64,000 bases of DNA from Candidatus Amesbacteria bacterium (GCA_027331445.1 DAHWUD010000001.1:43157-107156), one strand, 5' to 3'. Positions 3,544 through 63,629 are shown, counted from the stretch's first letter. The notes: generated by a model from the sequence alone, not told the origin. Translations and numbers: made by a program.

Positions 3544-3553
3544 AATCACTCTG

Positions 3554-12840: not shown

Positions 12841-12841
12841 T

Positions 12842-26256: not shown

Positions 26257-28467
26257 GTGATTTCAGAGAGACGACCGCATAACAAAGCAGTCACCAAATA
26301 TTATCTCCTTGCCCTTGTACTGGTAGTTGTTGTTTCGCATTGGCAGTGGATATTTCAAAATGCATACTATAGCTGGGGTGATGTCCGTTTTCCGGCCCAA
26401 TTTGTTGACACATGGAAGAATTTATTTGTTCTCCCCTCACTCTGGTCGTCATATTACAATGGCTTGGGGGGAATCGACCTTCTTTTATCGTGGTTTCCGT
26501 CTTTTAATGTTGTTTTTGCCGGACTGGCATCCGTTGGCTTAGACTCCAGAGTAGTATTTAGGCTCTTTTACTTGATTCCTATTCCCTTTCTCTCCACCAT
26601 CGGCAGTTTTCTTTTGGCCAGGCACTTTACCAAAAGCAACCTGGCCGGGTTTATTAGTGCCTTGGTATTCTCTTTTAATGTCGGCTTTCTTTTGGCTGAA
26701 ACGGGTAGCCCGACCATCTCATTGGCCGAAGGCCTGGCTCCGCTGATCTTGTTTTCGTATTCCGTCTACCTGAAATCCGGAAAAGCAAAACATGGTTTAT
26801 TAACGGGTTTATTGAGCTTTATTTGTGCTTCTTACGAGTTCCGGATTTTCTACATTATTGCTTTTATTTTGATATTTTATAGCATTTTTTTCCATCTTTT
26901 TGAGCTCAAGATAACCGTTCATAATGCCAGGAGGCGAATTTTTCTGTCTCTGTTGCCGCTGCTGGTAGTTCTGTTTCTCAGCCTCTATTGGATTCTTCCG
27001 CTATTCTTTACCCATAATCTGGCCGGCAATGCCTTGTTTAATCGGAGTTTGTTTGGGGATAAATTTTCATCCCTTAGACAATCAATAGCTTTATTTTCTC
27101 CGTGGTGGACGGGAGGGCACGGCTACGCGGGGGGGGTTGTTCAACCCATTCCCCGGCAGTTTTGGATCATCCCAATTCTCGTCATCTTGGGGTTCGTCGT
27201 CAATATCAAAAACAAATATGTCTATTATTTCGTTTTCCTCAGTTTATTGGGCATCCTGCTTACCAAGCAGTCAGATTATCCTTTCCCGGATTTATACAGC
27301 TGGCTATTCACTCACTTTCCCGGATTCAATGCCTATAGGGAAGCCAGCAAGTTTTTGGTGATTCTTTACCTGGGGTATTCGGTATTGATTGGTTTTTTTG
27401 TTTCCTGGATCGACAGAAATTTCATCAATTCCAAATTTCTTCATTTCTTTAAATTACTCGTAGTGGTAGAAATTGCTTCATTATTCCTGGTAAATGCCAG
27501 GCCCTTTGTCATCGGTAGCATCGGAGGGCTTTTTACACCCAAACACCTGCCAGCGGAGTATCAAACTCTTAAAAATTTCTTGATCTCTGACAGAGAATAT
27601 TATCGAACCCTTTGGATTCCCACCAACAGCCTCTGGGGATATTTTGACAATCTCCACCCGGTAATAAATATGCATACTTCATATTTTGATACCTGGGGAA
27701 ATATCTTTTCCACAAGACCGGATTTTCGGATCATGCCGGACACCAGCAGATACATTACCAACGACAATCATCAGGCTTTCAATTTTCTGTATCAGAACTA
27801 TTCCGCAAACTTGATAAACATCCTCTCGATTAAGTATGTAATTGTGCCGTTAAAAGATACCCAAAACGATGACGACATGTTTGTCAATTACGGGATGAAT
27901 GACAGGCAGTATATTCTGGATTTTCTGAACCGGTTGCCTTTCCTTAAAAAAATAGATATCAACACCCCCCATATTGATGTTTACGAAAACAAGAGTTTTC
28001 GCCCCCTTTTTTATCTTACCGATTCACCCCCCTCAATATTTGACTCAAAACCAGCTTCCTTTTCTGCTGTCGCGTATCAGAGCTTTAGCTCCACCCGGTA
28101 TCTGATTCGGGTAAACCACCTCAAAGATCCCGAAATTCTTAGTTTTTCACAATCGTATTCTCCCGATTGGACTTTATATATGGGAAAAATAAATCCACTG
28201 CTGGCGATTTTCACTTCTAAATCTCTGTCGTCACAAATGCACAGCCAAGCAGATTCCACGTTTAACACTTTTTATTTGTCGCCCGATGAAATAAAAAAAG
28301 ACTTCGCCCCGTCATCGTATCAAACAAACCCTGATGGCAGCATCAATTTTACGGCCACTTTATATTTGAAGAGCCAATCGTATGTTTATTACGGAACGGT
28401 CATGTCCGTAGCCGCTTTGATATCCATCTTGGCATTTTTGATCGTCCTTCCCCGGAATAAGCGTTGA
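26257..28467 (+). CDS. large polytopic membrane protein with C-terminal extracytoplasmic domain (paralog A; putative GT-C)
   Basis: 736 aa; about 13 TMs then soluble domain and a final TM; shares HFPGFNAYREASKF, LWIPT, IKYVIVPL, NTPHIDVYENKSFRP, TNPDGSINFTATLYLK with the ORF at 35137. Confidence 0.5.
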   Translation: MISERRPHNKAVTKYYLLALVLVVVVSHWQWIFQNAYYSWGDVRFPAQFVDTWKNLFVLPSLWSSYYNGLGGIDLLLSWFPSFNVVFAGLASVGLDSRVVFRLFYLIPIPFLSTIGSFLLARHFTKSNLAGFISALVFSFNVGFLLAETGSPTISLAEGLAPLILFSYSVYLKSGKAKHGLLTGLLSFICASYEFRIFYIIAFILIFYSIFFHLFELKITVHNARRRIFLSLLPLLVVLFLSLYWILPLFFTHNLAGNALFNRSLFGDKFSSLRQSIALFSPWWTGGHGYAGGVVQPIPRQFWIIPILVILGFVVNIKNKYVYYFVFLSLLGILLTKQSDYPFPDLYSWLFTHFPGFNAYREASKFLVILYLGYSVLIGFFVSWIDRNFINSKFLHFFKLLVVVEIASLFLVNARPFVIGSIGGLFTPKHLPAEYQTLKNFLISDREYYRTLWIPTNSLWGYFDNLHPVINMHTSYFDTWGNIFSTRPDFRIMPDTSRYITNDNHQAFNFLYQNYSANLINILSIKYVIVPLKDTQNDDDMFVNYGMNDRQYILDFLNRLPFLKKIDINTPHIDVYENKSFRPLFYLTDSPPSIFDSKPASFSAVAYQSFSSTRYLIRVNHLKDPEILSFSQSYSPDWTLYMGKINPLLAIFTSKSLSSQMHSQADSTFNTFYLSPDEIKKDFAPSSYQTNPDGSINFTATLYLKSQSYVYYGTVMSVAALISILAFLIVLPRNKR

Positions 28468-28493: not shown

Positions 28494-29390
28494 ATGACTT
28501 ACCCGACAAAGGTATTACTCACCGGAAGCACGGGACTTTTGGGGAGAGCCGTTCTGGCCACCGCCCCCGGCAGTTACAAAGTTTTCCCGGTTTTTTCAAA
28601 AAATCCCCCTTTAAATCTTGGTTATAAATTTCTTCAGACGGATATTACAAAGAAAAACGAAGTTAACGCGATATTCGAAAAAGTTAAACCGGATGTGGTT
28701 ATCCACGCCGCTTCAATAGGCAATGTAGACTATTGTGAGAGAAATCAGGAAGAAGCTTTCAAGGTAAACGTCACCGGCACCGAAAACCTGGTCAAACTTT
28801 GCCAAAAAATTGGTTCCCGACTGGTCTTTATTTCCTCGAACGCAGTTTTTGACGGGTTCCACCCGCCATATTCTGAAACTAGTCAGGTAGCCCCGGTAAA
28901 TTGCTACGGTCAAACCAAGGTCGCTGCTGAAAAAATTGTTTCCCAAAGCGGCCTCGACTTTCTCATCATACGTTTTACCCTCATGTACGGATGGAATAAT
29001 TCCAATCAGAGGTCAAATGCCGTTACCTGGCTATTGGACAAGTTGAGAAGAGGCGAGGATGTAAATCTGGTTACCGATACTTATGTCAACCCCGTCTTTA
29101 ATCTTCAGGCTGCTGAATGCCTCTGGAAGGCTCTGTTTTTGGGTAAGACCGGAATCTACCACGTCGGGGGAGGAGAGCGGGTCAATCGCTACCTGCTTGG
29201 TCTGAAAACCGCTCAAGTGTTTGGATTTGAAACCTCGTTTATCAAACCGGTCACAAGCGATTTTTTTCCGGGAATTGCCCAGCGCATGCCGGACACCACC
29301 TTTGATACTTCCCAAATGCAGCGAGAACTCAAAATTCGGCCCCTAAAAATCTTAACCGGTCTGAAAATCATGCGGCATATCAGCATATGA
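28494..29390 (+). CDS. RmlD-like NAD(P)-dependent 4-ketosugar reductase (dTDP-4-dehydrorhamnose reductase family)
   Basis: KVLLTGSTGLLGRAV (Rossmann), KPDVVIHAASIGNVDYCE, SSNAVFDG...YSETSQVAPVNCYGQTKVAAEK (YxxxK), FLIIRFTLMYGW - collinear with E. coli RmlD blocks. Confidence 0.6.
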   Translation: MTYPTKVLLTGSTGLLGRAVLATAPGSYKVFPVFSKNPPLNLGYKFLQTDITKKNEVNAIFEKVKPDVVIHAASIGNVDYCERNQEEAFKVNVTGTENLVKLCQKIGSRLVFISSNAVFDGFHPPYSETSQVAPVNCYGQTKVAAEKIVSQSGLDFLIIRFTLMYGWNNSNQRSNAVTWLLDKLRRGEDVNLVTDTYVNPVFNLQAAECLWKALFLGKTGIYHVGGGERVNRYLLGLKTAQVFGFETSFIKPVTSDFFPGIAQRMPDTTFDTSQMQRELKIRPLKILTGLKIMRHISI

Positions 29391-30605: not shown

Positions 30606-31373
30606 ATGAACGTAATTACTCACAGAGGACTGGAGCCCTCACAAAAAAACTTTCCTCCCGAAAGCAGCCTGGAGGCCTTTAAAAGTCATTTGGAGAGGGG
30701 ATTTGGCATCGAGTTTGACCCTTACTTTACGTCTGGAGACATACTGGTCACCCATAACTTGTCAAAACCCTCACCGTCATTGATTCAGGTTCTGAATTTG
30801 ATTAGAAAACAAGGAAATACGTCTCCCAACGCCTTGCATTTCAAAGGCAAATTTCAAACCTCAAAAAAAACGGATAAGCTACTTAAGATTCTGAGTCTAT
30901 ACCCGGATGTGGTGTCCGGTCTGATAATTTTTGATGTTAAACCGGAAATAGCTCCTATTATTAGATCAAAGTTACCTGCCGTCGGATTGGCTCCTTCAGT
31001 AGCTGATGAATATGACATATCTCGTTACAATTCAGCTGTGTCAGGAACATTACTTTCTGTTTCCGAAGCTATCAGATATAAATCGTATTACGATTGGGCT
31101 TGGCTCGATGAGTGGGACCTCCAAAAACCGGGCGGCCTAAGTAAAAAGTTCTATACTCAAAAAACCTTTTCAACATTAAGACGGGCTGGATATAAAATTG
31201 CGGCAGTCACCCCTGAGTTACATGGCACTTCCCCGGGACTTCTTGGCGGCGAGTTCCACCCAGATTCCCAAACATTACCAGGGCTTATGAAAAGAATTTC
31301 GGAAATCATTTCTCTGCACCCCGATTCCGTCTGCACGGATTATCCTGAGGAAGTTAAAAAACTTATTCTTTAA
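30606..31373 (+). CDS. glycerophosphodiester phosphodiesterase (GDPD/GP-PDE)-like protein
   Basis: MNVITHRGLEP...ESSLEAFKSHLERGFGIEFDPYFTSGDILVTHN matches the HRG...EN...E.D..L..DG..V..HD catalytic N-terminus of GDPD enzymes; C-terminal SVCTDYPEEV. Confidence 0.5.
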   Translation: MNVITHRGLEPSQKNFPPESSLEAFKSHLERGFGIEFDPYFTSGDILVTHNLSKPSPSLIQVLNLIRKQGNTSPNALHFKGKFQTSKKTDKLLKILSLYPDVVSGLIIFDVKPEIAPIIRSKLPAVGLAPSVADEYDISRYNSAVSGTLLSVSEAIRYKSYYDWAWLDEWDLQKPGGLSKKFYTQKTFSTLRRAGYKIAAVTPELHGTSPGLLGGEFHPDSQTLPGLMKRISEIISLHPDSVCTDYPEEVKKLIL

Positions 31374-32082
31374 AATTCGTTTCAAAAAATTTCACATCAT
31401 CCGGGGTTCCCATCTCCCACATGCTTGAAGCTACGGAAATTGAGAGTCGGTCCCCGCGTTCTATCAGTTGGTTATAAACAGGTGCGACATAGTATTCGTT
31501 GTTAACCTTTAATCCCTTTTTTATCATCTCTTCCGCTGCCCAAACAAAGTCTCTCCCGTGGGAAAAATAATAAGCTCCGACATTGGCATATTTTGAAATG
31601 GGTTTCTTTTCGGCGATTTCAACCACCCACCCTCTCTTATCGACCTTCGTAAAACTCCATTTGGGGTCATCGTCTTCAAAAACTAAAATAATTCCCTTGA
31701 CGTCTTTGGGTTTTTTGACGATATCCTCCTCAACGCTTGATTTATAATAGTGGTCAGTATCCATGATTAGCACGTCCTCATCATTATTTATTAAATCCCG
31801 GGCCAGTAATACCGTGCAGGCAGCACCCTCCGTTACATCCGGGGTATAAACAACCTTAATGTTTTTACCCAACAATTTACGCAGCTTGGTTACCAGGCCA
31901 TATTTATCTTCGTGATCTTTTCTTGCGATAAATATAAAATCTGAATGCGGGACCCAGGGAACTGATTCGATAGCTCTTTGTACCATTGGCTTGCCCATTA
32001 CCGGAATAAATGGTTTTGGAGTCGTTATCCCAGCCTTCAAAAATCTCGAACCTCTTCCGGCAATTGGCATGACTACCTTCAT
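31363..32082 (-). CDS. sugar-phosphate (or phospho-alcohol) nucleotidyltransferase, paralog 1
   Basis: VVMPIAGRGSRFLKAGITTPKPFIPVMGKPMVQRAIES - NTP_transferase G-loop; 239 aa; 3' end overlaps convergent + gene by 11 nt. Confidence 0.6.
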   Translation of the reverse strand: MKVVMPIAGRGSRFLKAGITTPKPFIPVMGKPMVQRAIESVPWVPHSDFIFIARKDHEDKYGLVTKLRKLLGKNIKVVYTPDVTEGAACTVLLARDLINNDEDVLIMDTDHYYKSSVEEDIVKKPKDVKGIILVFEDDDPKWSFTKVDKRGWVVEIAEKKPISKYANVGAYYFSHGRDFVWAAEEMIKKGLKVNNEYYVAPVYNQLIERGDRLSISVASSMWEMGTPDDVKFFETNFKE

Positions 32083-32870
32083 ACTTGCACCCTTCTTCCG
32101 ATATAGGCTAAAAATTGAACTAAATCTTCAATTGTCCCCATCCCATGCATAGACCTCGACTTTATGGGGAAAGTCGTCACGTAGCATCCATTCAATATCA
32201 TCTCATTATAAACCGGACATACGTAAAATTCTCCGTTTAGGGAGATGTTTTTTTCCAGCATGGAAAACGCGGATTTAACAAATTCTTTTCCACTTTCAAA
32301 ATAGTATATCCCGGCAGTCGCGTTCTGGGATATAACTTTCTTTTCCGCCGTCTCAATTACTTCCCCTTTTGAATTCGTTTTCGCATAGCTCCACCTGGGG
32401 TGCGATGATTCAAATGTCATTATCACTCCGTCCGCATTGGTTTTTCGGGAAAATAAAATAAACTTATTAATGTCCTCGTCAATATACTGGTCGGAATTTA
32501 CTATCATCAATTCGTCATCGCTGTCTATGTAATCAACCGCTGTTAGCACGGAACACAATGCCCCGCTCGTGGGCCTGACCAGCTTGACTGTCTTATAATT
32601 TCCTTCTGCTGAGACGTTGAATATCTCATACAGAGAGTACTTGTCATAATGTTCGTTTAAACACACAAAAATAAATCTGTGATTACATTTCGGTTTTACG
32701 TTTTCAATAACCCATTGAATCATCGGTTTTCCACCCACGTCAATCAAAGGTTTGGGAAAGGTGTAGCCGGCTTGAGCGAATGTTTTTCCACCACCAGCCA
32801 TGGGTATGACAATGTTCAACGTTTTTGATAATTTCACCCTAACCTCCTTCATATTTGTCTCCTTTAACAC
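32079..32870 (-). CDS. sugar-phosphate nucleotidyltransferase, paralog 2
   Basis: IVIPMAGGGKTFAQAGYTFPKPLIDVGGKPMIQWVIEN; shares EFYVCPVYNEMI / EYYVAPVYNQLI and GT.EDL / GTPDDV blocks with paralog 1. Confidence 0.6.
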   Translation of the reverse strand: MLKETNMKEVRVKLSKTLNIVIPMAGGGKTFAQAGYTFPKPLIDVGGKPMIQWVIENVKPKCNHRFIFVCLNEHYDKYSLYEIFNVSAEGNYKTVKLVRPTSGALCSVLTAVDYIDSDDELMIVNSDQYIDEDINKFILFSRKTNADGVIMTFESSHPRWSYAKTNSKGEVIETAEKKVISQNATAGIYYFESGKEFVKSAFSMLEKNISLNGEFYVCPVYNEMILNGCYVTTFPIKSRSMHGMGTIEDLVQFLAYIGRRVQV

Positions 32871-33162
32871 TGGGGATTTTTATAACCACATTTAAACCAG
32901 ATCTTAAGCAGCTAAACTTCACTTTTTCGCCGGGATTAACTTTAATAATTTGTCCGGGTGCAATATCCGCTTTGTTTATTCGGAAAAGGCCACTTGTCAC
33001 CACCGTGAATTCAGTAGCAACCTTGTGAAAGTGAGTTGGCTCTTCCTCCCCGGTTTTGTATTTTTTGATCGCAATCTCAAAGTGCTTGGTCTTAACCAGT
33101 GTCGGTTTAAAGTCTCCAATGAACCATCCCTTTTTAAACTTTTTGACGGAATATTTCTGCAT
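32839..33162 (-). CDS. small cupin-domain protein
   Basis: 107 aa; EEPTHFHKVATEFTVVTSGLF...PGEKVKF pattern typical of a single cupin barrel. Confidence 0.35.
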   Translation of the reverse strand: MQKYSVKKFKKGWFIGDFKPTLVKTKHFEIAIKKYKTGEEEPTHFHKVATEFTVVTSGLFRINKADIAPGQIIKVNPGEKVKFSCLRSGLNVVIKIPSVKGDKYEGG

Positions 33163-33167
33163 TCCTT

Positions 33168-33827
33168 TTACAGCAGCTTGTGCTTCTCCATCAATGTCAA
33201 ATTAACCTCATGGAATCCTTTCACTTCAATTACCCTGCCCCCCGATGCTTTTGCAGCTTTTATTCCATGAGGAGCATCCTCGATAATCACGGTTTCATTT
33301 GGTTTTACTTTCAAAATTCTGAAAGCAGCTAAATATATATCAGGAGCTGGCTTTGTTTTGTAACCTTCATCATTTCCTAACACCAGATCAAAAAAATGGT
33401 CTATTCCTGATCTTCTTAGCATATTTTCAACGGAATATTTTTGTGCGTTACTGCAGCATGCCAGTTTGTATCCCTTCCTCTTGAGGTGAGTAAGCATAAT
33501 CAGCTTTTCATAAGAAGGTCGACACTTATTTGACACCTCCTCTTCGGTATATCTTTTTTTAAGGGATTTAATAACCGGGTGAATGCCCCACGGAATTTCT
33601 CCCCTTTCGGATAAAATTTTCAACTTTTCTGTAGTCGGCAGACCATTGTAAACTTTCAGGTGTTCTTCTCTTCCAATTTCACTCCCGAATAACCTTAAAG
33701 CCCGATTTAAAGCTTCATAATGCCACTCGGTTGCATCCACCAACACCCCATCTAAATCAAACATGACCGCACTTGTCCGCATCAGACTCATTCTATAATC
33801 ATCACCAACAATATTCAACTTGCCCAA
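33168..33827 (-). CDS. HAD-superfamily hydrolase (subfamily IA, beta-phosphoglucomutase/phosphatase-like)
   Basis: AVMFDLDGVLVDATEWHYEAL (DxDG motif I), LACCSNAQ, VIIEDAPHGIKAAKASG (motif IV). Confidence 0.6.
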   Translation of the reverse strand: MGKLNIVGDDYRMSLMRTSAVMFDLDGVLVDATEWHYEALNRALRLFGSEIGREEHLKVYNGLPTTEKLKILSERGEIPWGIHPVIKSLKKRYTEEEVSNKCRPSYEKLIMLTHLKRKGYKLACCSNAQKYSVENMLRRSGIDHFFDLVLGNDEGYKTKPAPDIYLAAFRILKVKPNETVIIEDAPHGIKAAKASGGRVIEVKGFHEVNLTLMEKHKLL

Positions 33828-33877
33828 ATATCGGTTCTTAAGCTATTAAATAATCAAAAATAATATAGAATAATCTC
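33828..33877. promoter_or_regulatory. candidate divergent promoter region between minus-strand HAD/NT cassette and + strand genes
   Basis: 50-nt AT-rich spacer (…TTAAGCTATTAAATAATCAAAAATAATATAGAATAATCTC) between divergent start codons, contains TATAGAAT -10-like element. Confidence 0.2.
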
Positions 33878-35125
33878 ATGCTCGATCTTTCCGAGGTTAG
33901 CCATGTGATTGGCGCAAATCATTGGTCCGGGGAAATAAACCAGCTTTATCGTCCGTCTTCAATAGTGCCTTCGGAGTCTCAAAATATTGTCTATTTTTTT
34001 AATTCCCTCAGGTCGCCCAAGTACCTCCCTGTCGCCCTGAAAGAATGGTTCTCCTTGGTAAAAGTTACTGGTTACTTGGTTCTTGATTACAAAGAAGGAG
34101 AAGGACTTAGTTGGCAGACGATCGAAGAAAGCATGTGGTGGTTACACAAGGCCCAGTATACGATTGTTTATCACGATACAGTTGCTTGTTCCGCATTTAA
34201 ACCAGTTTCGGAAAAATCGCTTTTTGCCGAAATAAAATCATACTCAAATCGGAACGGATTTGCAGACACCCCTGTTTCCAAAGGCACACTAATGCGCTTT
34301 GTTTGCCAAAAGAACATTTCTTCTCAAATGCCCAGCGATTCAATTGACAAATGGTCGTTTGGAATCATATCCAACGGTCAACGTGATGATTGGACCGCAC
34401 AAATTATAACATCGATTAGAAAACAAAAAATCCCTCATTACGAAATATTAATTTGCGGTAGGTACGGCGGTGACGTCGGGAAAGATACGCGGATTATACC
34501 TTTTTCCGATCGGGACTCCCTGGGATGGATTACCAGGAAGAAGAATCTTCTAGCCCGGGCCTCCCGATATGAAAACCTTTGTCTCTTACACAACCGTATG
34601 TTGTTGGCGGACGGCTGGTATGAGGGCATGAAAAAATGGGGAAACACTTTTGAAGTATTAAACACCATTCAAACCCAAAAAATAAACGGTAAAAGAGGTA
34701 ATTCTTGGGAGGAAACAACCCTCGCCTTTTACCGAAAATTATCAATGTATACGCCGAGAACAATTTTTCATTTCACAGCAAATCTCGATTACAAAGATTG
34801 GGGTAAATACATTATGACCTATGGTCAGTCAATCATTATCAAAAGACGAATCGTGCTTCAGGTCCCGCTGAATGAAACATTATATTGGAAAACGCCGGAA
34901 GACCATTTGTTTTCGTATGACTTGGTTGATAGGGGTTATATTTTGCGTCTGAATCCTTTTAGCGAGCTGATAAATCTTGATTCAAAGAACTGGGGCACCG
35001 ATACTCACTTGTTGTTTTCGCCGACCTCTCGGGGGAGAGAATCTGGCCCATTAGTCAAGGTGGCTTTTAGGACAACCATTCTCTTTATATTATCTAGATT
35101 TAATAAATTGATTCTCAGGACGTAA
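33878..35125 (+). CDS. hypothetical protein, possible GT-A-like central domain
   Basis: 415 aa, soluble; region WSFGIISNGQRDDWTAQIITSIRKQKIPHYEILICG loosely resembles the start of a GT-A domain; no confident family. Confidence 0.3.
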   Translation: MLDLSEVSHVIGANHWSGEINQLYRPSSIVPSESQNIVYFFNSLRSPKYLPVALKEWFSLVKVTGYLVLDYKEGEGLSWQTIEESMWWLHKAQYTIVYHDTVACSAFKPVSEKSLFAEIKSYSNRNGFADTPVSKGTLMRFVCQKNISSQMPSDSIDKWSFGIISNGQRDDWTAQIITSIRKQKIPHYEILICGRYGGDVGKDTRIIPFSDRDSLGWITRKKNLLARASRYENLCLLHNRMLLADGWYEGMKKWGNTFEVLNTIQTQKINGKRGNSWEETTLAFYRKLSMYTPRTIFHFTANLDYKDWGKYIMTYGQSIIIKRRIVLQVPLNETLYWKTPEDHLFSYDLVDRGYILRLNPFSELINLDSKNWGTDTHLLFSPTSRGRESGPLVKVAFRTTILFILSRFNKLILRT

Positions 35126-35136
35126 AATCACTCAAA

Positions 35137-37311
35137 ATGAAACACCTTCTGCAAATATCCAAAAGGCACCTAACTGCTCTTAGTCTCATATTCCTGCTAA
35201 TTATAAATCTTATTGCTTACCATATCTGGTTTTTCGGTACCCCTATCCTTACAAGTGGTGACTGGTGGTTCGCTTACTCGGAGAGTACCCGGGAGTTATT
35301 GACAATCCCCCAACTCTGGACTGCCAACACAAATATCGGCTCTATCAGTCTCGCCCTGACCTTCGCGCCTAAGCTTCTGTTGAATGGGCTCTTGTCAGCC
35401 TACAACATCTCTCCCCAGCTTAACAATGAAATTACCTATCTATGGCCCACTGTGATCCTTTCTTCCATCGGTTACTATTTATTGGGAAAAAAGATCGTCG
35501 GCAGCCATATTGCCGGCATTTTTTCCTCCATCACCTTTTCCTTCAGTGTTATAAACATCGGAATCCGCAGTGGTCATCTTACGTTGGCTACCGCTCACGC
35601 GTTTGCCCCATTCGCACTTTTATGGCTAATCAAGGGTTTCCAGTCCAAAAAATATCAGGATTTCATCATCGCTGGGTTTTGGGGTTATCTGGTCAGTTTC
35701 AATGAGGTTAGGGCTTTTTATGTCTTAGCCATGGCCATGGGAATATGTTATTTATATTACACATTTATTATCGACAAGTTTAAAACAAGATGGGTAATCA
35801 AAAACACACTTTTGTTTGGGATGACTATGGGCATTGCTTTGTTGTTGAACGCGTATTGGTTATTGCCGTTTGCCCTTGTTACTCCTGAACCCAATAGCGG
35901 TTTCGAATTACTCGGTCGGACTTTGTTTGGCGGACCCAATTACAACATTTTGTATAGTTTCACTTCCTGGAACATCTGGTGGACCGGAAAACTACAAGCC
36001 TCCGCAGTTCAGCCTATCCCGATTTATTTTTGGATAATTCCATTTATAGCCTTTCTCGGGCTATTACTGCGCAAAAAGAACCAAAATGTCATATTGTTCG
36101 GACTAATCGCCTTGCTGGGAATGTTTCTTGGCAAGCAGGGAGGCGCCCCCTTTACCAACGTTTATCAATGGCTTTATTCTCATGTTCCTGGTTTTAACGC
36201 GTTTAGGGAAGCCAGCAAGTTCAATTTGTTAATCTTAACAGGATATTCAATAATGATCGGGGCCTTTTTAGATTGGTTATGGAAGAAGACCGTCGTCGCA
36301 CACCAAAAAAAATACCTGGGATTCGCCCTCATATTTTTACTGGGATTCATTTACCTATGGAACGCCAAACCGCTTATCACAGGCGAGATTGGTTCAATTT
36401 TTATTCCCAGACATATTCCACCCCAATATCTGAGTGTAAAATCTTATCTTCAGTCACAGCCTGGATACTTTAAAATTCTTTGGATTCCTACGATTTCGAG
36501 ATGGGGAATTTTTACCAACGACCACCCTTCTTTAAATACAATTGAATTAGTGCAAAGTGACTGGGATTATTTAATTTACAATTATGTTCATAACACCACC
36601 CGCGGCACTGATCAGGGAAAGTTACTATATTTCATCAACCGGTCCGATTTCTCAAACATTTTAAATGACTCATCAATAAAGTACATCATCGTCCCCCTAG
36701 TAGATACAGCCAATGATGATAATTTTTATGTTTACTATGGTAGAAGGGATAAATACATCGATCAGCTTGACCGCAAAGGCTATCTAAAGAAGATTAATAT
36801 CAATACGCCGGGAATTTCCATATATGAAAACACAACCTTTAGACCTCATTTCTACATCACCGCAGACACTCCTTCTCTGGATTCATCACAGCCATACAGC
36901 CCCGTCACATTTTATAGAGTGAATAGTACTCAATATGCGGTCGAGTTGACTAACGTCAGTGGCAAAGAGAGTCTTAACTTTTCGGAAAGGTTCCATCCTG
37001 ACTGGAAAGTCAGAGTTGGAAATTTCTCTTGGTGGCGGGCCATTCTGAGCAGGTCATACTTCCTGCCTGATCGGTTTCACTTCTCGGACGGAACCAGAAT
37101 GAACTCATTCACCATTGATCCTCAATACTTAATTAAAAACTACCCAGCTTCGGTGTCCACCAATCCCGACGGAAGTATAAATGTAAAATTGACTCTCTAT
37201 TTTAAACCTGAGGCCTATGTATACGTTGGCATGATTGTAGCCATGGCTACCTTTCTGGGCGGTGTCTGTTTTATAATATTTCAGAAGAGAAACAAACACG
37301 GCCATGGATAA
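35137..37311 (+). CDS. large polytopic membrane protein with C-terminal extracytoplasmic domain (paralog B of 26257..28467)
   Basis: 724 aa; HVPGFNAFREASKF, ILWIPT, IKYIIVPLVDTANDDNFYVYYG, NTPGISIYENTTFRPHFY, TNPDGSINVKLTLYFK shared with paralog A. Confidence 0.5.
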   Translation: MKHLLQISKRHLTALSLIFLLIINLIAYHIWFFGTPILTSGDWWFAYSESTRELLTIPQLWTANTNIGSISLALTFAPKLLLNGLLSAYNISPQLNNEITYLWPTVILSSIGYYLLGKKIVGSHIAGIFSSITFSFSVINIGIRSGHLTLATAHAFAPFALLWLIKGFQSKKYQDFIIAGFWGYLVSFNEVRAFYVLAMAMGICYLYYTFIIDKFKTRWVIKNTLLFGMTMGIALLLNAYWLLPFALVTPEPNSGFELLGRTLFGGPNYNILYSFTSWNIWWTGKLQASAVQPIPIYFWIIPFIAFLGLLLRKKNQNVILFGLIALLGMFLGKQGGAPFTNVYQWLYSHVPGFNAFREASKFNLLILTGYSIMIGAFLDWLWKKTVVAHQKKYLGFALIFLLGFIYLWNAKPLITGEIGSIFIPRHIPPQYLSVKSYLQSQPGYFKILWIPTISRWGIFTNDHPSLNTIELVQSDWDYLIYNYVHNTTRGTDQGKLLYFINRSDFSNILNDSSIKYIIVPLVDTANDDNFYVYYGRRDKYIDQLDRKGYLKKININTPGISIYENTTFRPHFYITADTPSLDSSQPYSPVTFYRVNSTQYAVELTNVSGKESLNFSERFHPDWKVRVGNFSWWRAILSRSYFLPDRFHFSDGTRMNSFTIDPQYLIKNYPASVSTNPDGSINVKLTLYFKPEAYVYVGMIVAMATFLGGVCFIIFQKRNKHGHG

Positions 37312-44134: not shown

Positions 44135-45235
44135 ATGAAAGCACCAAAAGCTGTTAAATCATTGATTATCATCATCGGCATCCCGGCTCTTTTGTTTATC
44201 TTGGGCTTTTTTCTCTCCTCAGTCCAGTTTTACCGCCAGGAAATCAGTTTTTTAAGCTTAACCAAGAACCATTCCACCAACGACATTACTTCTTCTCCGG
44301 CAGGAAATCTGCTGGCTGGAAACAAAATCAGTGGGAAATTTGTCGCCTATGACGATTACCTTGGTATCGTTAGCGTCAGGTTTGATACATTCTACCGAAT
44401 TAATGACGACTGGCTTGTTTTTAGAATTAAACAGCTGGGTGATTCAAAGTGGTACTACGAAAACTACTATAAGGTTGATCAATTTCAGTCTCACGAACTT
44501 TTTCCATTCGGATTCCCCATCATTAAAAATTCGGCCGGAAAGACATATGTTTTTGAAATCGAATCGACAACAGGAACCTCTGATGATTCAGTAGCGCTGG
44601 ACAAAACCTACCCGGTGTTTATCAGTATTTACAAATACCCCAGAAAAGTGGTTTTCAGCGGTTTTGGGCCTTTGCAGAAATTCCTACCTGAAAAGTTAGC
44701 TAGCTTTAGAAACGAAAACATCGGGAGGACAATTCAAGCTAATAAAACCATTAGGTTCATCTTCAAGAAATTTTTTAACATAGTTATCAATACTCAAATC
44801 CCGGTACTAGGTTTCTTTTATTTTCTTCCACTGATTATTTATCTCTTTTGGCTAGTGATTTACCGACGACCAAAAACTAAGAAGTCTTATATGCTGGCAA
44901 TTCTTTTTTTGCTGACGTTCATCGAGATAATAATAATTGCAGAATCGATTGACTTTATAGTTTTGGAAATATTTCTCATGTGGATCTGGGCTGTTTGGTA
45001 TTACAAATTGAAGAATCTGGACATTTTTGTTCTTGCCTTTATTTTGTTAGGTCTTTGCCCTCTGTTTTTGTTGATGAATCTTAATGATATTTCCGAGAAA
45101 ATTGGTGCCTGGTCATTCCTGTTTTTTGTCATCGCTATCTTCCAACTCGCTATCGAACAAAAATTTCATCACGGAAGAAGAGTCAGCATTCTCAGTGTTT
45201 TGCGAAAAATTCCTAAAGACTTCCATGACCGCTAA
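44135..45235 (+). CDS. hypothetical membrane protein (N-terminal anchor, ~190-aa extracytoplasmic domain, C-terminal TM bundle)
   Basis: 366 aa; TM at residues ~8-30, soluble segment, then 4-5 hydrophobic segments; AT-rich like the rest of the island. Confidence 0.4.
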   Translation: MKAPKAVKSLIIIIGIPALLFILGFFLSSVQFYRQEISFLSLTKNHSTNDITSSPAGNLLAGNKISGKFVAYDDYLGIVSVRFDTFYRINDDWLVFRIKQLGDSKWYYENYYKVDQFQSHELFPFGFPIIKNSAGKTYVFEIESTTGTSDDSVALDKTYPVFISIYKYPRKVVFSGFGPLQKFLPEKLASFRNENIGRTIQANKTIRFIFKKFFNIVINTQIPVLGFFYFLPLIIYLFWLVIYRRPKTKKSYMLAILFLLTFIEIIIIAESIDFIVLEIFLMWIWAVWYYKLKNLDIFVLAFILLGLCPLFLLMNLNDISEKIGAWSFLFFVIAIFQLAIEQKFHHGRRVSILSVLRKIPKDFHDR

Positions 45236-46571
45236 CAAATTTTCTCTTCCACTAGTCTTTCTGGCCTTCATTATCATTTTGTCTCAAACCCAATTCACAC
45301 CCTGGCCGGAAATGTTGCTCTGGCCGTATCTTATTAACCATGGCTGGCTGGCCTACCGCGATATTGCCATCGCCCATTCTCCCCTTCTCCCTTACCTACT
45401 GGCCGGTTACTATAAATTTTTCGGGGAATCACTTCTGTCATTGAAAATATTTTCCTGGATTCTGGTACTTTTTTCAGCTCTGCTTACCTACTTTATCGCC
45501 AAAAAATTGTTTGGGAAAAACCCCGCCCTGGCCGCTTTCCTGCTTTTCCTGGTCTTACAGTACAGGTATGAAGGGAATGGTGTCTGGTTTGATGTCTTGC
45601 TTGCCCCGCTGTTTCTTCTCGTTTACTTTTCGCTCAAGGAAAAAAAATACGTTTGGTTCGGTTTTTTTTGGGCCCTCGCGTTTTTTGTCAAGCAAACCGC
45701 AGTCTGGCTTTTAATTCCGGTTTTATTTACATTTATTAGCCGGAAATTTCCGGTGCCGAAACTATTTACGGCTTTTTTGGGAGCTTTACCCGTTTTATTG
45801 GTCATTCTTTTTTTTCTGATCATTTCCCGGGACATTCCTTACTACTTTTTTTGGAGCATTCAATTCGGTCTGTTCATCCTGCCCCGGATGCCGCCCCAAT
45901 ATCCCAGCCTCAGTCAATTTGTCTCCGGCTCCTGGCCTTTCCTGATCGCTTTTTTTATCCCGTTGATAAAATCATCTCCCCGGAGACAAATCAGCCTGGA
46001 ACTACTCTTTTTTGGTTTTTTTTCGGCCTTCGGAGTCATCCCGCGCTGGGAGCTCTTTCATTTCCAGCCGGCTCTGCCCTTCCTCAGTTTATTGGTGGTC
46101 CAAATACTGCAGCACGCCTCCTGGGTCGGTCGCTACTCCAAATTAGCTTTGGGCATCTTCGTGACGGTATTCGCTGTCATCTTTATATTCCACACTAAAA
46201 ATATTTTATTCCGTCCAGATCGGTTTTCTGAACCCGAAGTTAGCCAGGCTGAAATCTATACATTGGCCCATACCCTGCCGGGAGACACTATATTTATCCT
46301 CAACTGGTGGGACAGTCTCTATGCTCAAACCGGCAGACTGCCGCCCAAACCCTGGGTTCCTCAACTGCCCCAATACCTGTCTCTGCCCGGCATGCAGGAA
46401 GCCCTGATCGCCGGGCTCTCTTCGCATCCTCCAAAATTAATCCTGTTTAAGCTCTATGACTCCGGGTCGTACATTCCGAAAAAACTTGATGCCTATATTT
46501 TTTCCCACTACACAGAAGTTATTTTCATTGGGAATCAGTACGAAGTTCTGGCCCCGATCCGGAATGAATAA
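45225..46571 (+). CDS. polytopic membrane protein, putative GT-C glycosyltransferase (DUF2029-like)
   Basis: ORF track 45084..46571; preferred start ATG 45225 (MTANKFSLPLVFLAF); YRDIAIAHSPLLPYLLAGYY loop motif; GC-rich codon usage resumes within this gene. Confidence 0.4.
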   Translation: MTANKFSLPLVFLAFIIILSQTQFTPWPEMLLWPYLINHGWLAYRDIAIAHSPLLPYLLAGYYKFFGESLLSLKIFSWILVLFSALLTYFIAKKLFGKNPALAAFLLFLVLQYRYEGNGVWFDVLLAPLFLLVYFSLKEKKYVWFGFFWALAFFVKQTAVWLLIPVLFTFISRKFPVPKLFTAFLGALPVLLVILFFLIISRDIPYYFFWSIQFGLFILPRMPPQYPSLSQFVSGSWPFLIAFFIPLIKSSPRRQISLELLFFGFFSAFGVIPRWELFHFQPALPFLSLLVVQILQHASWVGRYSKLALGIFVTVFAVIFIFHTKNILFRPDRFSEPEVSQAEIYTLAHTLPGDTIFILNWWDSLYAQTGRLPPKPWVPQLPQYLSLPGMQEALIAGLSSHPPKLILFKLYDSGSYIPKKLDAYIFSHYTEVIFIGNQYEVLAPIRNE

Positions 46572-47967: not shown

Positions 47968-47990
47968 GGCATTTCTCATATAATGGCCTG

Positions 47991-49445: not shown

Positions 49446-49475
49446 ATGAGCCGCATTATAGCGTAAAATCTATCT

Positions 49476-52839: not shown

Positions 52840-52840
52840 T

Positions 52841-53671: not shown

Positions 53672-53673
53672 AC

Positions 53674-54411: not shown

Positions 54412-54414
54412 CTT

Positions 54415-55416: not shown

Positions 55417-55421
55417 AATCT

Positions 55422-57532: not shown

Positions 57533-57542
57533 CCCCCAATAG

Positions 57543-59734: not shown

Positions 59735-59737
59735 ATT

Positions 59738-60334: not shown

Positions 60335-60335
60335 T

Positions 60336-63626: not shown

Positions 63627-63629
63627 TCT

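What the first reader, a model, noticed from the sequence alone, without database searches (positions are those of the whole stretch)
30606..33827. Convergent donor-synthesis cassette: GDPD-like gene facing a minus-strand operon of two paralogous nucleotidyltransferases, a cupin and a HAD phosphatase
This is the only multi-gene minus-strand block in the window (31363-33827). It holds two roughly 240-260-aa NTP-transferase paralogs (G-loops MPIAGRGSRF and IPMAGGGKTF, shared C-terminal YV.PVYN blocks), a 107-aa cupin and a beta-PGM-type HAD enzyme (DLDGVL). The + strand GDPD-like gene ends 11 nt inside the first nucleotidyltransferase.

The combination mutase-or-phosphatase + two nucleotidyltransferases + cupin (possible epimerase or isomerase) + phosphodiesterase is not a standard dTDP-, UDP- or GDP-sugar set. 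It could make an activated phospho-alcohol or unusual sugar (CDP-glycerol-like, CDP-ribitol-like or a heptose-like donor) for a phosphodiester-linked decoration.
Basis: inference. Interest (0 to 1): 0.55.

Follow-up and report, generated by a model that had tools for sequence, protein, structure and literature searches.

The report
BcbE-type sugar-activation cassette, product unknown
The five genes are real and belong to a gene module found across bacteria, archaea, plasmids and cyanophages that probably makes a nucleotide-activated sugar for decorating a surface glycan, but its product has never been identified.

Summary
All five ORFs, their motifs and the 11-nt convergent overlap are present.

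The cassette is not a one-off. Both nucleotidyltransferases (NTs) fall in the uncharacterised 4EVW/"BcbE-like" clade, not with RmlA, GalU, HddC, TarI or LicC. I sampled 81 related loci from DPANN archaea, Patescibacteria, SAR11, Proteobacteria, Treponema, Firmicutes and others.
- A GDPD-type phosphodiesterase lies beside the NT in 64 loci.
- A HAD-IA hydrolase lies beside it in 60.
- The small cupin occurs in 41, and a second NT in 41.
- Cupin and second NT travel together (Fisher p = 6e-7).
- HAD–NT, cupin–NT and NT–NT fusions occur.

The convergent GDPD-like gene is therefore a core component. The divergent 415-aa gene (33878-35125) is a GT-A glycosyltransferase that recurs with the module.

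The HAD looks more like a sugar-phosphate phosphatase than beta-phosphoglucomutase. The cupin's nearest structures are phosphomannose and lyxose isomerases. NT2 lacks the G-loop arginine.

My best reading is synthesis of an unusual NDP-sugar, possibly a ketose such as fructose, which is the only genetic phenotype known for BcbE. The glycosyltransferase would then transfer it. The product and the phosphodiesterase's role are unresolved. A phosphodiester-linked donor is not excluded.

The parts
30606..31373 (+). GDPD-superfamily phosphodiesterase (255 aa), a core component of the module
   Evidence: It has no Pfam hit on its own. A family profile (A2, 21 sequences) matches solved GDPDs at E = 6.5e-21. 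H6, R7, G8, E36, D38, H50 and K80 are invariant. A homologue lies next to the NT in 64 of 81 loci. The window copy and its L003 relative lack a roughly 40-aa insert after H50 and lack the usual Asp after that His: the window has H-N and L003 H-H.
31363..32082 (-). NT1: BcbE/4EVW-type nucleotidyltransferase with a canonical G-loop (AGRGSRF). It is the presumed catalytic NT.
   Evidence: Pfam NTP_transferase, 45.5 bits. Best solved relative is 4EVW, E = 1.3e-21. It belongs to clade c1 of the NT tree (TDxDHYF, NxGAYYF), which is associated with the long GDPD form and the p415 glycosyltransferase. K23, D110 and E158-K159 are invariant.
32079..32870 (-). NT2: a paralogous NT (40% identical to NT1) with an altered G-loop (AGGGKTF, no Arg). 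It is the cupin-linked partner. The likely true start is the ATG at 32852.
   Evidence: It is fused to the cupin in the relative L003 (360 aa). It belongs to clade c2. Unpaired c2 members have a canonical G-loop. The c2 members paired with a c1 NT do not (window GGGKTF, L003 GTGRSF, L021 GEGTSF).
32839..33162 (-). Small single-domain cupin (107 aa) with the HxHxxxxE metal motif. It is a candidate sugar or sugar-phosphate aldose-ketose isomerase.
33168..33827 (-). HAD-IA hydrolase, most likely a sugar-phosphate phosphatase. The gene caller's start at 33791 gives 207 aa.
   Evidence: HAD_2, 119.8 bits. The beta-PGM equivalog scores 82 bits against a cut-off of 189. The best solved relative is TM1254, a phosphorylated-carbohydrate phosphatase (E = 7e-21), followed by the MtlD phosphatase domain, CbbY and beta-PGM. 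A homologue is adjacent in 60 of 81 loci and is fused to the NT in 22.
33792..33877 (.). AT-rich divergent intergenic region between the HAD operon and the p415 operon. It presumably holds the promoters, but this is inferred.
   Evidence: Sequence. The consensus promoter scan shows no enrichment over shuffled sequence (12 found, 11.5 expected), so this part is inference only.
33878..35125 (+). p415: a GT-A-fold glycosyltransferase with an N-terminal methyltransferase-like domain. It is the candidate user of the donor.
35137..37311 (+). A 724-aa polytopic membrane protein directly downstream of p415. It may be the membrane transferase of the same decoration system, but this is tentative.
   Evidence: No Pfam hit. 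It is 34% identical to its paralogue at 26257-28467. A homologue follows the p415 homologue in L003, L004 and L005, and one is present in L016. Its role is inferred from position only.

Best explanation
The cassette is one copy of a conserved, widely distributed module that makes an unusual nucleotide-activated sugar for glycan decoration.

The core of the module has three parts:
- a GDPD-type phosphodiesterase;
- a HAD-IA sugar-phosphate phosphatase;
- a BcbE/4EVW-type nucleotidyltransferase.

An accessory pair consists of a small metal-binding cupin and a second NT paralogue. The window has all five, plus a dedicated GT-A glycosyltransferase (p415) read divergently.

Proposed flow (inferred):
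1. A central hexose or ketose phosphate is processed by the HAD, which removes a phosphate.
2. The cupin interconverts aldose and ketose forms.
3. NT1, which has the canonical G-loop, joins the resulting sugar phosphate to an NMP.
4. NT2 has lost the G-loop arginine and is fused to the cupin in a close relative. It acts as a non-canonical partner subunit that binds substrate or product, rather than as a second independent pyrophosphorylase.
5. p415 transfers the sugar onto the glycan built by the surrounding 24-kb glycosyltransferase and methyltransferase island.

The phosphodiesterase is a true pathway member and keeps its catalytic residues. Its step is unknown.

The most likely class of product is a ketose-type sugar such as fructose. 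I hold the general statement (an NDP-sugar donor module) at about 0.5 and the ketose identity at about 0.3.

Shown: gene content, family and fold assignments, conservation, co-occurrence and fusions.
Inferred: substrates, the order of steps, any NT1-NT2 association, and the role of p415.
For: 1. Family. Both NTs are closest to PDB 4EVW. They keep the K23, D110 and E158-K159 positions of sugar-1-phosphate NTs. Homologues are named 'glycosyltransferase family 2 protein' or 'capsular biosynthesis protein' by NCBI.

2. Spread. The word-indexed search found 1117 clusters (90% identity). The full scan found 722 clusters (50% identity) at E <= 1e-30. At least 590 GTDB species carry a relative. The module also occurs on plasmids and in T4-like cyanophages.

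3. Co-occurrence in 81 loci. Phosphodiesterase 64, HAD 60, cupin 41, two or more NTs 41, and all five components 25. Cupin against second NT gives p = 6e-7.

4. Fusions. HAD-NT occurs in 22 loci and in a cyanophage. Cupin-NT2 is fused in L003. NTb-NTa is fused in a Rhizobium plasmid protein of 508 aa. Many such architectures appear among the top 150 representatives.

5. Degenerate partner. All 23 bacterial clade-B NTs lack the G-loop Arg and sit in loci with a cupin. The three c2 copies paired with a c1 NT, including NT2, also lack it.

6. HAD. It is nearest to sugar-phosphate phosphatases.

7. Cupin. Its top structural neighbours are phosphomannose isomerase and lyxose/mannose isomerase.

8. 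p415. It has a GT-A fold and recurs with the module in distant taxa.

9. Ketose hints.
- P. multocida bcbE mutants lose the capsule's fructose side chain (PMC13552107).
- A xylulokinase-like FGGY kinase replaces the HAD in DPANN and CPR loci (Fisher p = 2e-4).
- The cupin's neighbours interconvert aldoses with 2-ketoses.
Against: - No substrate or product is known for any member of the family. The link to P. multocida BcbE rests on database names (IPR016873 in PMC11641403; CDD name from memory), not on a sequence comparison made here.
- FGGY kinases phosphorylate non-anomeric hydroxyls. GDPD enzymes act on phosphodiesters. Both facts fit a CDP-ketose or CDP-polyol donor at least as well as a glycosyl donor.
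- The C. jejuni HS1 capsule carries fructose without any such module in its 11-gene locus (PMC7901785). The module is therefore not needed for every bacterial fructosylation.
- p415 accompanies only 18 of 81 loci. The window's own copy has Asn at a nearly invariant Asp.
- The association statistics are not corrected for phylogeny.
Confidence: 0.5

Rival explanations
1. The module makes a nucleotide-activated phospho-alcohol or non-anomeric sugar phosphate, of the CDP-glycerol, CDP-ribitol, CDP-xylulose or CDP-6-fructose type. That group is installed as a phosphodiester-linked substituent. The GDPD-type enzyme supplies, trims or edits the phosphodiester.
For: - A GDPD-type phosphodiesterase is the most constant partner (64 of 81 loci).
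- In DPANN and CPR variants, an FGGY kinase closest to xylulokinase sits directly upstream of one NT. Such kinases make terminal phosphate esters.
- The HAD also resembles polyol-phosphate phosphatases: the MtlD phosphatase domain in PDB and HxpB at 59 bits.
- NT1 and NT2 give weak IspD matches (25.6 and 17.4 bits).
- There is precedent for NTs acting on fructose-6-P and xylulose-5-P (PMC10918830).
Against: - The precedent enzymes (HS5.18, TarI, Abp1) are IspD-family (PF01128) and are paired with an SDR reductase. Here the IspD matches are below threshold, and no reductase is conserved with the module.
- No TagF-, LicD- or Stealth-type phosphotransferase is conserved with the module. The recurrent transferase is GT-A.
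- The NTs sit nearest the sugar-1-phosphate NTs such as RmlA, GlmU-N and GalU.
- The only genetic phenotype for the family, in P. multocida BcbE, concerns a fructose side chain described as attached to ManNAcA, with no phosphate mentioned.
Confidence: 0.25
2. This is a GDP-mannose-like three-step route built from non-orthologous parts. The cupin acts as a sugar-6-phosphate isomerase, like PMI. The HAD acts as a phosphomutase, like beta-PGM or eukaryotic PMM. The NT acts as the pyrophosphorylase and makes an ordinary NDP-aldohexose.
For: - The HAD is in the beta-PGM subfamily neighbourhood (PGMB-YQAB-SF, 97 bits; beta-PGM structures at E = 2e-15).
- NT + cupin fusions mirror bifunctional PMI-GMP enzymes (own knowledge; fusion seen).
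- HAD-NT fusions fit consecutive steps.
Against: - The HAD is below both beta-PGM thresholds. In the HMMER alignment to TM1254, its cap motif GLPTTEKL pairs with that phosphatase's GVPEREGL. By my own alignment to the L. lactis beta-PGM sequence recalled from memory, it lacks the distal-phosphate Arg49 of beta-PGM.
- This route leaves the near-universal phosphodiesterase without a role.
- An FGGY kinase, which does not make anomeric phosphates, substitutes for the HAD in some loci.
- The core module lacks the cupin in about half of the loci.
Confidence: 0.15
3. The adjacency is incidental. The GDPD-like gene and p415 are unrelated neighbours of a generic sugar-nucleotide operon. The two NTs simply make two different common donors.
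For: - The GDPD-like gene is on the opposite strand here.
- p415 is absent from most related loci.
- In DPANN loci, both NT copies have canonical G-loops.
Against: - The phosphodiesterase is adjacent in 64 of 81 loci across bacteria, archaea, plasmids and phages. It often sits between the NT and the HAD on the same strand.
- The relative L003 keeps all six genes despite a rearrangement.
- Fusions tie the HAD, the cupin and both NT types together.
Confidence: 0.04

Closest known systems
PDB 4EVW, Vibrio cholerae 'nucleoside-diphosphate-sugar pyrophosphorylase' (structural genomics; no published function found)
   Same: It is the best solved relative of both NTs (E = 1.3e-21 and 2.6e-16, full length). 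It shares the AG..SRF G-loop region, the W-S-F/Y, AEK and Y-hydrophobic-x-P-hydrophobic-Y-N blocks (4EVW: YIAPLYN), and is about 250 aa long.
   Different: Identity is only about 30%. The gammaproteobacterial 4EVW-like subfamily, seen in the E. coli O20/O137 cluster and an ST131 plasmid, is partnered by a small HAD and an APH-family kinase-like protein rather than by a GDPD phosphodiesterase and a cupin.
Pasteurella multocida BcbE (capsule type B), prototype of InterPro IPR016873 / CDD GT2_BcbE_like
   Same: It carries the same family label as the window NTs' homologues ('capsular biosynthesis protein', 'glycosyltransferase family 2 protein'). It sits in a glycan locus. Its mutants lose a side-chain sugar, fructose (PMC13552107).
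   Different: I could not compare the sequences directly. BcbE's biochemical activity is unknown, and so are the domain families of its partners BcbF and BcbG. The window organism is an uncultured bacterium, apparently of the Patescibacteria type, with a different gene set.
Bifunctional type II phosphomannose isomerase / GDP-mannose pyrophosphorylase (ManC, AlgA, XanB)
   Different: The domain order is reversed (cupin N-terminal in L003). The cupin is much smaller. The NT is far below the mannose-1-P guanylyltransferase threshold (31 bits against 440). No alpha-phosphohexomutase is present.
HAD phosphatase + nucleotidyltransferase pathways: KdsC/KdsB (CMP-Kdo), Kdn/Neu5Ac-9-P phosphatase + CMP-synthetase, GmhB/HddC, MupP-AmgK-MurU
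   Same: The logic is the same: a HAD phosphatase prepares the sugar that an NT then activates. The HAD and NT are adjacent or fused (pathways from own knowledge).
   Different: Those HADs belong to other subfamilies (IIIA/C0), except MupP. Those NTs belong to other families. None of those pathways includes a GDPD-type phosphodiesterase or a degenerate second NT.
Catalytic/non-catalytic NT pairs (GalU/GalF, ADP-glucose pyrophosphorylase small/large subunits, GMPPB/GMPPA)
   Same: There are two paralogous NTs, one of which has lost a catalytic G-loop residue. They are adjacent, and sometimes fused.
   Different: No physical interaction has been tested here. The degenerate copy is strictly tied to a cupin, which has no counterpart in those systems.
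CDP-alditol/CDP-ketose pathways (TarI/TarJ, Abp1/Abp2, C. jejuni HS5.18/HS5.17)
   Same: An NT acts on a non-anomeric ketose phosphate from central metabolism to decorate capsules. Fructose-6-P is a proven NT substrate (PMC10918830).
   Different: Those NTs are IspD-family and are paired with an SDR reductase. Here the NTs are PF00483/4EVW-type, with no conserved reductase.

Membership tests
Pfam PF00483 NTP_transferase (sugar-phosphate nucleotidyltransferase superfamily) | Score above the Pfam gathering threshold, with the G-loop, Lys, Asp and E-K motifs present | tested here: met
   NT1 scores 45.5 bits and NT2 49.3 bits against 21.2. K23, D110, E158 and K159 are invariant across 25 family members. 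NT2 lacks the G-loop Arg.
RmlA / GalU / GlmU / ManC / HddC / MurU equivalogs (NCBIfam) | Whole-protein score above the curated equivalog cut-off | tested here: not met
   The best scores are Arch_glmU at 64.7 against 292, rmlA_long at 57 against 320, galU at 34.5 against 327, HddC at 26 against 300, and MurU at about 20-23 against 250.
IspD / TarI / LicC-type cytidylyltransferases (PF01128, PF12804) | Score above the Pfam gathering threshold | tested here: inconclusive
   IspD scores 25.6 (NT1) and 17.4 (NT2) against 27, so it is not met. NTP_transf_3 scores 24.8 (NT1, not met) and 37.2 (NT2, met). In both proteins these matches are weaker than PF00483 and overlap it.
4EVW / 'BcbE-like' NT clade | Closest full-length similarity to 4EVW and to proteins labelled BcbE-like, with the shared WS(F/Y), AEK and (F/Y)Y(V/I)xP(V/L)YN blocks | tested here: met
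   4EVW is the top PDB hit for both NTs, 13 and 11 orders of magnitude ahead of the next hits (RmlA for NT1, a 6-deoxy-D-mannoheptose pathway protein for NT2). The blocks are conserved in 120 NT sequences.
4EVW / 'BcbE-like' NT clade | Direct sequence similarity to P. multocida BcbE itself | not testable with these tools
   The BcbE sequence is not in any collection I could query. The link rests on database names (CDD name from memory).
Glycerophosphodiester phosphodiesterase (GDPD) superfamily | Sequence or profile similarity to GDPDs, plus the catalytic His-Arg, the Glu/Asp metal ligands and the second His | tested here: met
   The single sequence gives no Pfam hit and E = 1.2 to 3no3. The family profile gives E = 6.5e-21 to 2pz0 and matches more than 25 other GDPD structures. 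H6, R7, E36, D38, H50 and K80 are invariant. Substrate was not tested.
Cupin superfamily | Double-stranded beta-helix fold and the HxH...E motif | tested here: met
Cupin-type phosphomannose / lyxose isomerases | Specific similarity beyond the shared fold, or activity | tested here: inconclusive
HAD superfamily, subfamily IA | Four HAD motifs and a C1 cap, with a score above threshold | tested here: met
   HAD_2 scores 119.8 bits against 23.8. HAD-SF-IA-v3 scores 58.3 against 29.4. The motifs DLDGVL, CCSN, K-x-KPAP and EDA are visible in the sequence.
Beta-phosphoglucomutase (bPGM equivalog) | Score above the equivalog cut-off, and the cap-domain Arg49 that binds the distal phosphate | tested here: not met
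   bPGM scores 82 bits against 189. PGMB-YQAB-SF scores 97 against 153. In the HMMER alignment to the phosphatase TM1254, the cap motif GLPTTEKL pairs with its GVPEREGL. That no Arg stands at the beta-PGM Arg49 position rests on my own alignment to the L. lactis sequence recalled from memory.
GT-A fold glycosyltransferases (for p415) | GT-A fold, plus an acidic metal-binding (DxD-like) motif | tested here: inconclusive

The most novel reading that the evidence does not exclude
The module may be a kinase-free route for activating a ketose at its tertiary anomeric carbon.

Proposed steps:
1. A ketose 1-phosphate is formed. The HAD makes it from a bisphosphate such as fructose-1,6-bisphosphate. 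In DPANN and CPR variants, the FGGY kinase makes it from the free ketose.
2. One NT converts it to NDP-1-ketose.
3. The GDPD/PI-PLC-like phosphodiesterase lets the neighbouring anomeric 2-OH attack the phosphodiester. NMP is released and a ketose 1,2-cyclic phosphate forms. The same enzyme then opens the ring to give ketose 2-phosphate.
4. An NT converts this to NDP-2-ketofuranose. This is a true fructofuranosyl or xylulofuranosyl donor for the GT-A transferase.

This would account for every conserved component. It would also supply the missing nucleotide donor for the Fruf and Xulf residues of bacterial glycans. It is speculation, and no step has been tested.
Probability: 0.08. Interest if true: 0.85.

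Novelty: new member of a known kind. Interest (0 to 1): 0.55.

Why it matters
This NT family is catalogued in CDD and InterPro as 'BcbE-like', and one structure (4EVW) has been solved. I found no biochemical function for it in the literature I could search, and no curated NCBIfam equivalog. The only phenotype is the loss of a fructose side chain in P. multocida (2026).

This analysis shows that the NT nearly always travels with a GDPD-type phosphodiesterase and a HAD phosphatase. It often travels with a cupin and a degenerate second NT as well. The module occurs in SAR11, DPANN archaea, Patescibacteria, gut Firmicutes and Bacteroidales, an IncP plasmid of P. aeruginosa and T4-like cyanophages. 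A module that widespread with no known product is a clear gap in glycobiology.

If the product is a ketofuranose donor, the module would answer an open question. [quoted passage not shown]

The window copy itself is an ordinary member. Its value is as an entry point. It keeps all parts plus a dedicated GT-A transferase in 4.5 kb.

Tried and rejected
- Single-sequence Pfam, NCBIfam and PDB searches of the GDPD-like protein, p415 and the 724-aa membrane protein gave nothing. Only family profiles or structure prediction resolved the first two.
- I looked for a published function of the family. BcbE has genetics only. KfoE is called a fructosyltransferase, but I could not establish its family. 4EVW appears in one unrelated paper. 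Searches for ketose-nucleotide terms and for V. cholerae core fructose gave nothing relevant. CpgD and HS5.18 belong to other NT families.
- I tried to tie the 4EVW-like trio in the E. coli O20/O137 cluster to a known sugar. The review says the O20 structure does not fit that locus. I rejected this as evidence.
- I considered the HAD as a beta-PGM-type mutase and downgraded the idea.
- I considered the upstream RmlD-like reductase and GT4 as parts of the cassette. They are absent from the closest relative L003 and are not conserved with the module. I left them out.
- The promoter and terminator scan was uninformative.
- Exact-sequence cluster look-ups gave no names or taxon.
- The AFDB library was unavailable for a fold search.
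- The window's own species is not among the GTDB representatives. The best match is 56% identical.

Full report
**1. The observation**

- A 255-aa plus-strand gene lies at 30606-31373.
- Four tightly packed minus-strand genes follow: NT1 (31363-32082, 239 aa), NT2 (32079-32870, 263 aa), a 107-aa ORF (32839-33162) and a HAD gene (33168-33827).
- Public gene calls for the identical contig start NT2 at the ATG at 32852 (257 aa) and the HAD at 33791 (207 aa).
- The stop codons at 31371-31373 (+) and 31363-31365 (-) give the stated 11-nt convergent overlap.
- NT2 and NT1 overlap by 4 nt. The cupin and NT2 overlap by 14 or 32 nt. The HAD and cupin genes are 5 nt apart.
- No other multi-gene minus-strand block exists in the window.
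- NT1 and NT2 are 40% identical.

The cassette sits in a stretch of about 24 kb at about 42% GC (22-46 kb). The flanks are at about 52% GC. The stretch is filled with GT4 and GT2 glycosyltransferases and SAM or FkbM methyltransferases. The flanks hold arrays of PMT_2-type membrane glycosyltransferases, YfhO, a Wzx-type flippase and a Wzy_C protein.

**2. What the five proteins are**

- **NTs.** Both pass Pfam NTP_transferase. They reach no NCBIfam equivalog. RmlA, GalU, GlmU, ManC, HddC and MurU are all far below their cut-offs. Their best solved relative by a wide margin is 4EVW, an unpublished structural-genomics 'nucleoside-diphosphate-sugar pyrophosphorylase' from Vibrio cholerae (E = 1.3e-21 and 2.6e-16, against about 1e-8 for RmlA).
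- **HAD.** It is a HAD-IA protein. It is below the beta-PGM thresholds. It is closest to the sugar-phosphate phosphatase TM1254, then to the mannitol-1-P phosphatase domain of MtlD, then CbbY, then beta-PGM. In the HMMER alignment, its cap motif GLPTTEKL pairs with TM1254's GVPEREGL. By my own alignment to the L. lactis beta-PGM sequence recalled from memory, it lacks the Arg that binds the distal phosphate in beta-PGM.
- **GDPD-like protein.** It is invisible to Pfam as a single sequence. A profile of 21 homologues hits more than 25 solved GDPDs (best E = 6.5e-21). The catalytic H-R-G, E-x-D, His and Lys positions are invariant.

**3. A sixth member**

The 415-aa gene read divergently from the HAD (33878-35125) has no Pfam, NCBIfam or PDB sequence match. 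Its family is small: 54 hits, mostly unnamed, a few named as Patescibacteria-group MAGs and one as Serratia. It gave a high-confidence model (pLDDT 92, pTM 0.91).

In the closest relative (L003, with NT1 82% identical), the six genes are all present but rearranged. HAD, a cupin-NT2 fusion of 360 aa and NT1 lie on one strand. The GDPD-like gene lies 2 kb away, divergent from the p415 homologue. The set survives an inversion, which argues for one functional unit.

**4. The cassette is a member of a very widespread module**

The word-indexed search found 1117 NT1 relatives. The exhaustive scan found 722 clusters (50% identity) at E <= 1e-30. A scan of one genome per species found at least 590 carriers.

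The 80 best loci span many groups: DPANN archaea, Patescibacteria, SAR11, Gammaproteobacteria, Betaproteobacteria and Alphaproteobacteria, Treponema, Lachnospiraceae, Bacteroidales, Verrucomicrobia, Planctomycetota and others.

An HMM census of 81 loci (six-frame translations, E <= 1e-6) gave these counts:

| Component | Loci (of 81) |
|---|---|
| GDPD-type phosphodiesterase | 64 |
| HAD | 60 |
| Cupin | 41 |
| Two or more NTs | 41 |
| p415-type GT-A domain | 18 |
| FGGY kinase | 10 |
| Phosphodiesterase + HAD + NT together | 54 |
| All five cassette components | 25 |

The phosphodiesterase comes in three sizes:
- about 285 aa in CPR and DPANN loci;
- about 210 aa in most bacteria, where NCBI calls it 'phosphodiesterase';
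- about 145 aa in SAR11, which keeps only the N-terminal catalytic motifs (hhalign probability 97.8%).

Typical gene orders are:
- PDE-HAD-NTb-cupin-NTa, in Treponema, Lachnospiraceae, Bacteroidales, Planctomycetota and Rugamonas;
- NTa-PDE-HAD-NTb-cupin, in Xanthobacteraceae and a P. aeruginosa IncP plasmid;
- miniPDE followed by a HAD-NT fusion, in SAR11.

T4-like cyanophages carry a HAD-NT fusion, a second HAD and the mini-PDE.

**5. Internal logic from co-occurrence and fusions**

- The cupin and a second NT come together. The counts are 32 loci with both, 9 with the cupin only, 9 with a second NT only and 31 with neither (Fisher p = 6e-7).
- HAD-NT fusions occur in 22 loci. A cupin-NT fusion occurs in L003. 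An NTb-NTa fusion of 508 aa occurs on Rhizobium plasmids.
- The top 150 representatives include many proteins of about 450, 350 and 500 aa with the matching domain layouts.
- A neighbour-joining tree of 120 NT domains, with motif read-out, shows distinct clades.
  - The bacterial 'NTb' clade has a degenerate G-loop (for example MGKSTFF or AG-NLYF) with no arginine. All 23 of its members sit in loci with a cupin.
  - NT1 belongs to clade c1, which has a canonical AGxGSRF. This clade is mostly from DPANN and CPR organisms and is usually accompanied by the long GDPD form and p415.
  - NT2 belongs to clade c2, the type fused to the HAD in SAR11. Unpaired c2 members are canonical. The three c2 copies paired with a c1 NT (window GGGKTF, L003 GTGRSF, L021 GEGTSF) have lost the Ser-Arg.
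- In RmlA-type enzymes this arginine contacts the leaving pyrophosphate (own knowledge). The second copy is therefore probably not an ordinary pyrophosphorylase. A partner role like that of GalF is more likely, or a nucleotide-sugar-binding role that serves the cupin. This is inference.
- In nine DPANN, CPR and Dehalococcoidia loci, an FGGY kinase sits directly upstream of one NT. A tenth FGGY hit, in L081, lies apart on the opposite strand and is probably unrelated. The kinases tested are nearest xylulokinase (229-263 bits, below the 380-bit cut-off). In these loci the HAD is usually missing. The counts are 2 loci with both, 8 with the kinase only, 58 with the HAD only and 13 with neither (p = 2e-4).
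- None of these statistics is corrected for phylogeny.

**6. What it most likely does**

The shown facts point to a pathway that starts from a sugar phosphate and ends in a nucleotide-linked sugar. Those facts are an NT nearest the sugar-1-phosphate NTs, a sugar-phosphate-phosphatase-like HAD fused or adjacent to it, a cupin nearest aldose-ketose isomerases, and a GT-A transferase as the recurrent neighbour.

The only experimental information on the family is genetic. In P. multocida type B, bcbE and bcbG mutants make a capsule that lacks the fructose side chain (PMC13552107). The link from BcbE to this family rests on database labelling. A Vibrio 241-aa 'bcbE-like' protein carries IPR016873, and NCBI names the homologues 'glycosyltransferase family 2' or 'capsular biosynthesis protein'. 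I could not compare the sequences.

The fructose phenotype, the isomerase-like cupin and the xylulokinase-like kinase together hint at a ketose. Each hint is weak. [quoted passage not shown] The question is therefore open.

The catalytic residues of the phosphodiesterase are intact and its association is the strongest of all. It must do chemistry in the pathway, but I cannot assign its step. The 'novel case' gives one scheme that would use every component.

**7. Rivals**

The phosphodiesterase, the FGGY kinase and the polyol-phosphatase-like HAD all fit it. Against it, the proven CDP-ketose and CDP-alditol NTs are IspD-family enzymes with SDR reductase partners. No phosphotransferase of the TagF, LicD or Stealth type travels with the module. 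The recurrent transferase is GT-A.
- A GDP-mannose-like route with the HAD as mutase is weakened by the HAD's phosphatase-like features. It also leaves the phosphodiesterase unexplained.
- Coincidental adjacency is contradicted by the census.

**8. Related variants seen elsewhere**

A more distant (about 28%) 4EVW-like subfamily in E. coli is partnered by a small HAD and an APH-family kinase-like protein. It occurs in the O20/O137 galF-gnd cluster and on an ST131 plasmid beside Stealth and TagF-like genes. This layout recalls the phosphatase-kinase-NT logic of MupP-AmgK-MurU (own knowledge).

A table in the C. jejuni HS1 paper lists, in strain IA3902, adjacent genes for a 619-aa 'dTDP-glucose pyrophosphorylase', a 109-aa unknown protein, a 111-aa 'ketosteroid isomerase', a 241-aa 'glycosyl transferase' and a 219-aa HAD (PMC7901785). 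This looks like the same module, but I did not test it by sequence.

**9. Verdict**

The genes do form a donor-synthesis cassette that includes the GDPD-like gene, and it is not a standard sugar-nucleotide set.
- The cassette is a member of a large, conserved and biochemically uncharacterised module, not a local oddity.
- The proposed donors (CDP-glycerol, CDP-ribitol, heptose) have no specific support.
- The window copy has two deviations at otherwise conserved aspartates: GDPD H-D becomes H-N, and p415 H-D-R becomes H-N-R. All reading frames are intact.

Noticed in passing
window 22000-46000 against the flanks 1-22000 and 46000-64000: The cassette lies in a stretch of about 24 kb at about 42% GC, inside flanks at about 52% GC. 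The plus strand of the flanks is strongly T- and C-rich (AT skew down to -0.41). Almost every gene in the 64 kb is on the plus strand.
   Followed up: partly
window 3518-14464: Seven consecutive, end-to-end ORFs fill this stretch. Six are about 530-550 aa and one (5170-6417) is 415 aa. The three long ones I scanned give weak PMT_2 (GT-C) matches. More PMT_2 proteins lie at 45084-46571, 56141-57532 and 62187-63626. This is an unusually large battery of membrane glycosyltransferases.
   Followed up: partly
window 26257-28467 and 35137-37311: Two polytopic membrane proteins of 736 and 724 aa are 34% identical and match no Pfam family. They bracket the cassette. Homologues follow the p415 homologue in L003-L005, and one occurs in L016. 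Their layout of many transmembrane helices plus a large soluble domain suggests a GT-C-like transferase, but this is untested.
   Followed up: partly
window 33878-35125 (residue 239) and 30606-31373 (residue 51): The window's p415 has Asn where at least 90% of homologues have Asp (H-D-R becomes H-N-R). The GDPD-like protein has H-N where most have H-D, and it lacks a roughly 40-aa insert. These may be altered or weakened activities in this lineage.
   Followed up: no
window 28494-29390: An RmlD-like reductase scores 180 bits against a cut-off of 224. No RmlA, RmlB or RmlC partner was seen among the ORFs I scanned. It is absent from the related locus L003.
   Followed up: no
L090 (Synechococcus phage S-CAM9, NC_031922.1, 146507-155220): T4-like cyanophages (19 Synechococcus phage records) carry the core module: a HAD-NT fusion of 461 aa, a second HAD and a mini-phosphodiesterase. 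It sits beside glycosyltransferases and a nucleotide-sugar epimerase.
   Followed up: partly
L086 (P. aeruginosa PA83 IncP plasmid, NZ_CP017294.1, 114837-119765): A conjugative clinical plasmid carries the full five-gene module (NT, phosphodiesterase, HAD, NT, cupin). It is followed by a 591-aa protein with a p415-type GT-A domain, then a GMC oxidoreductase and a WavE-family LPS protein.
   Followed up: partly
L088 (Rhizobium tumorigenes plasmid, NZ_CP117259.1), locus 5839-9493: A short phosphodiesterase and a HAD are followed by a single 508-aa protein. Its N-terminal half is an NT with a degenerate G-loop, and its C-terminal half is a canonical NT. The genes lie next to an erythritol-catabolism-like cluster.
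   Followed up: partly
L089 (E. coli O20:H12 chromosome, galF-gnd locus) and L087 (E. coli ST131 plasmid pMB9366_2): A distant 4EVW-like NT sits with a small HAD and a roughly 530-aa APH-family kinase-like protein. On the plasmid this trio lies beside Stealth, TagF-like and capsular biosynthesis genes (probably KpsC and KpsS by size and position). The published O20 structure is reported not to fit the galF-gnd locus.
   Followed up: partly
L007-L010, L012-L015, L017: In these DPANN, CPR and Dehalococcoidia loci, a xylulokinase-like FGGY kinase sits immediately upstream of one NT. The HAD is absent in all but L007. This suggests two alternative ways of supplying the NT substrate.
   Followed up: partly
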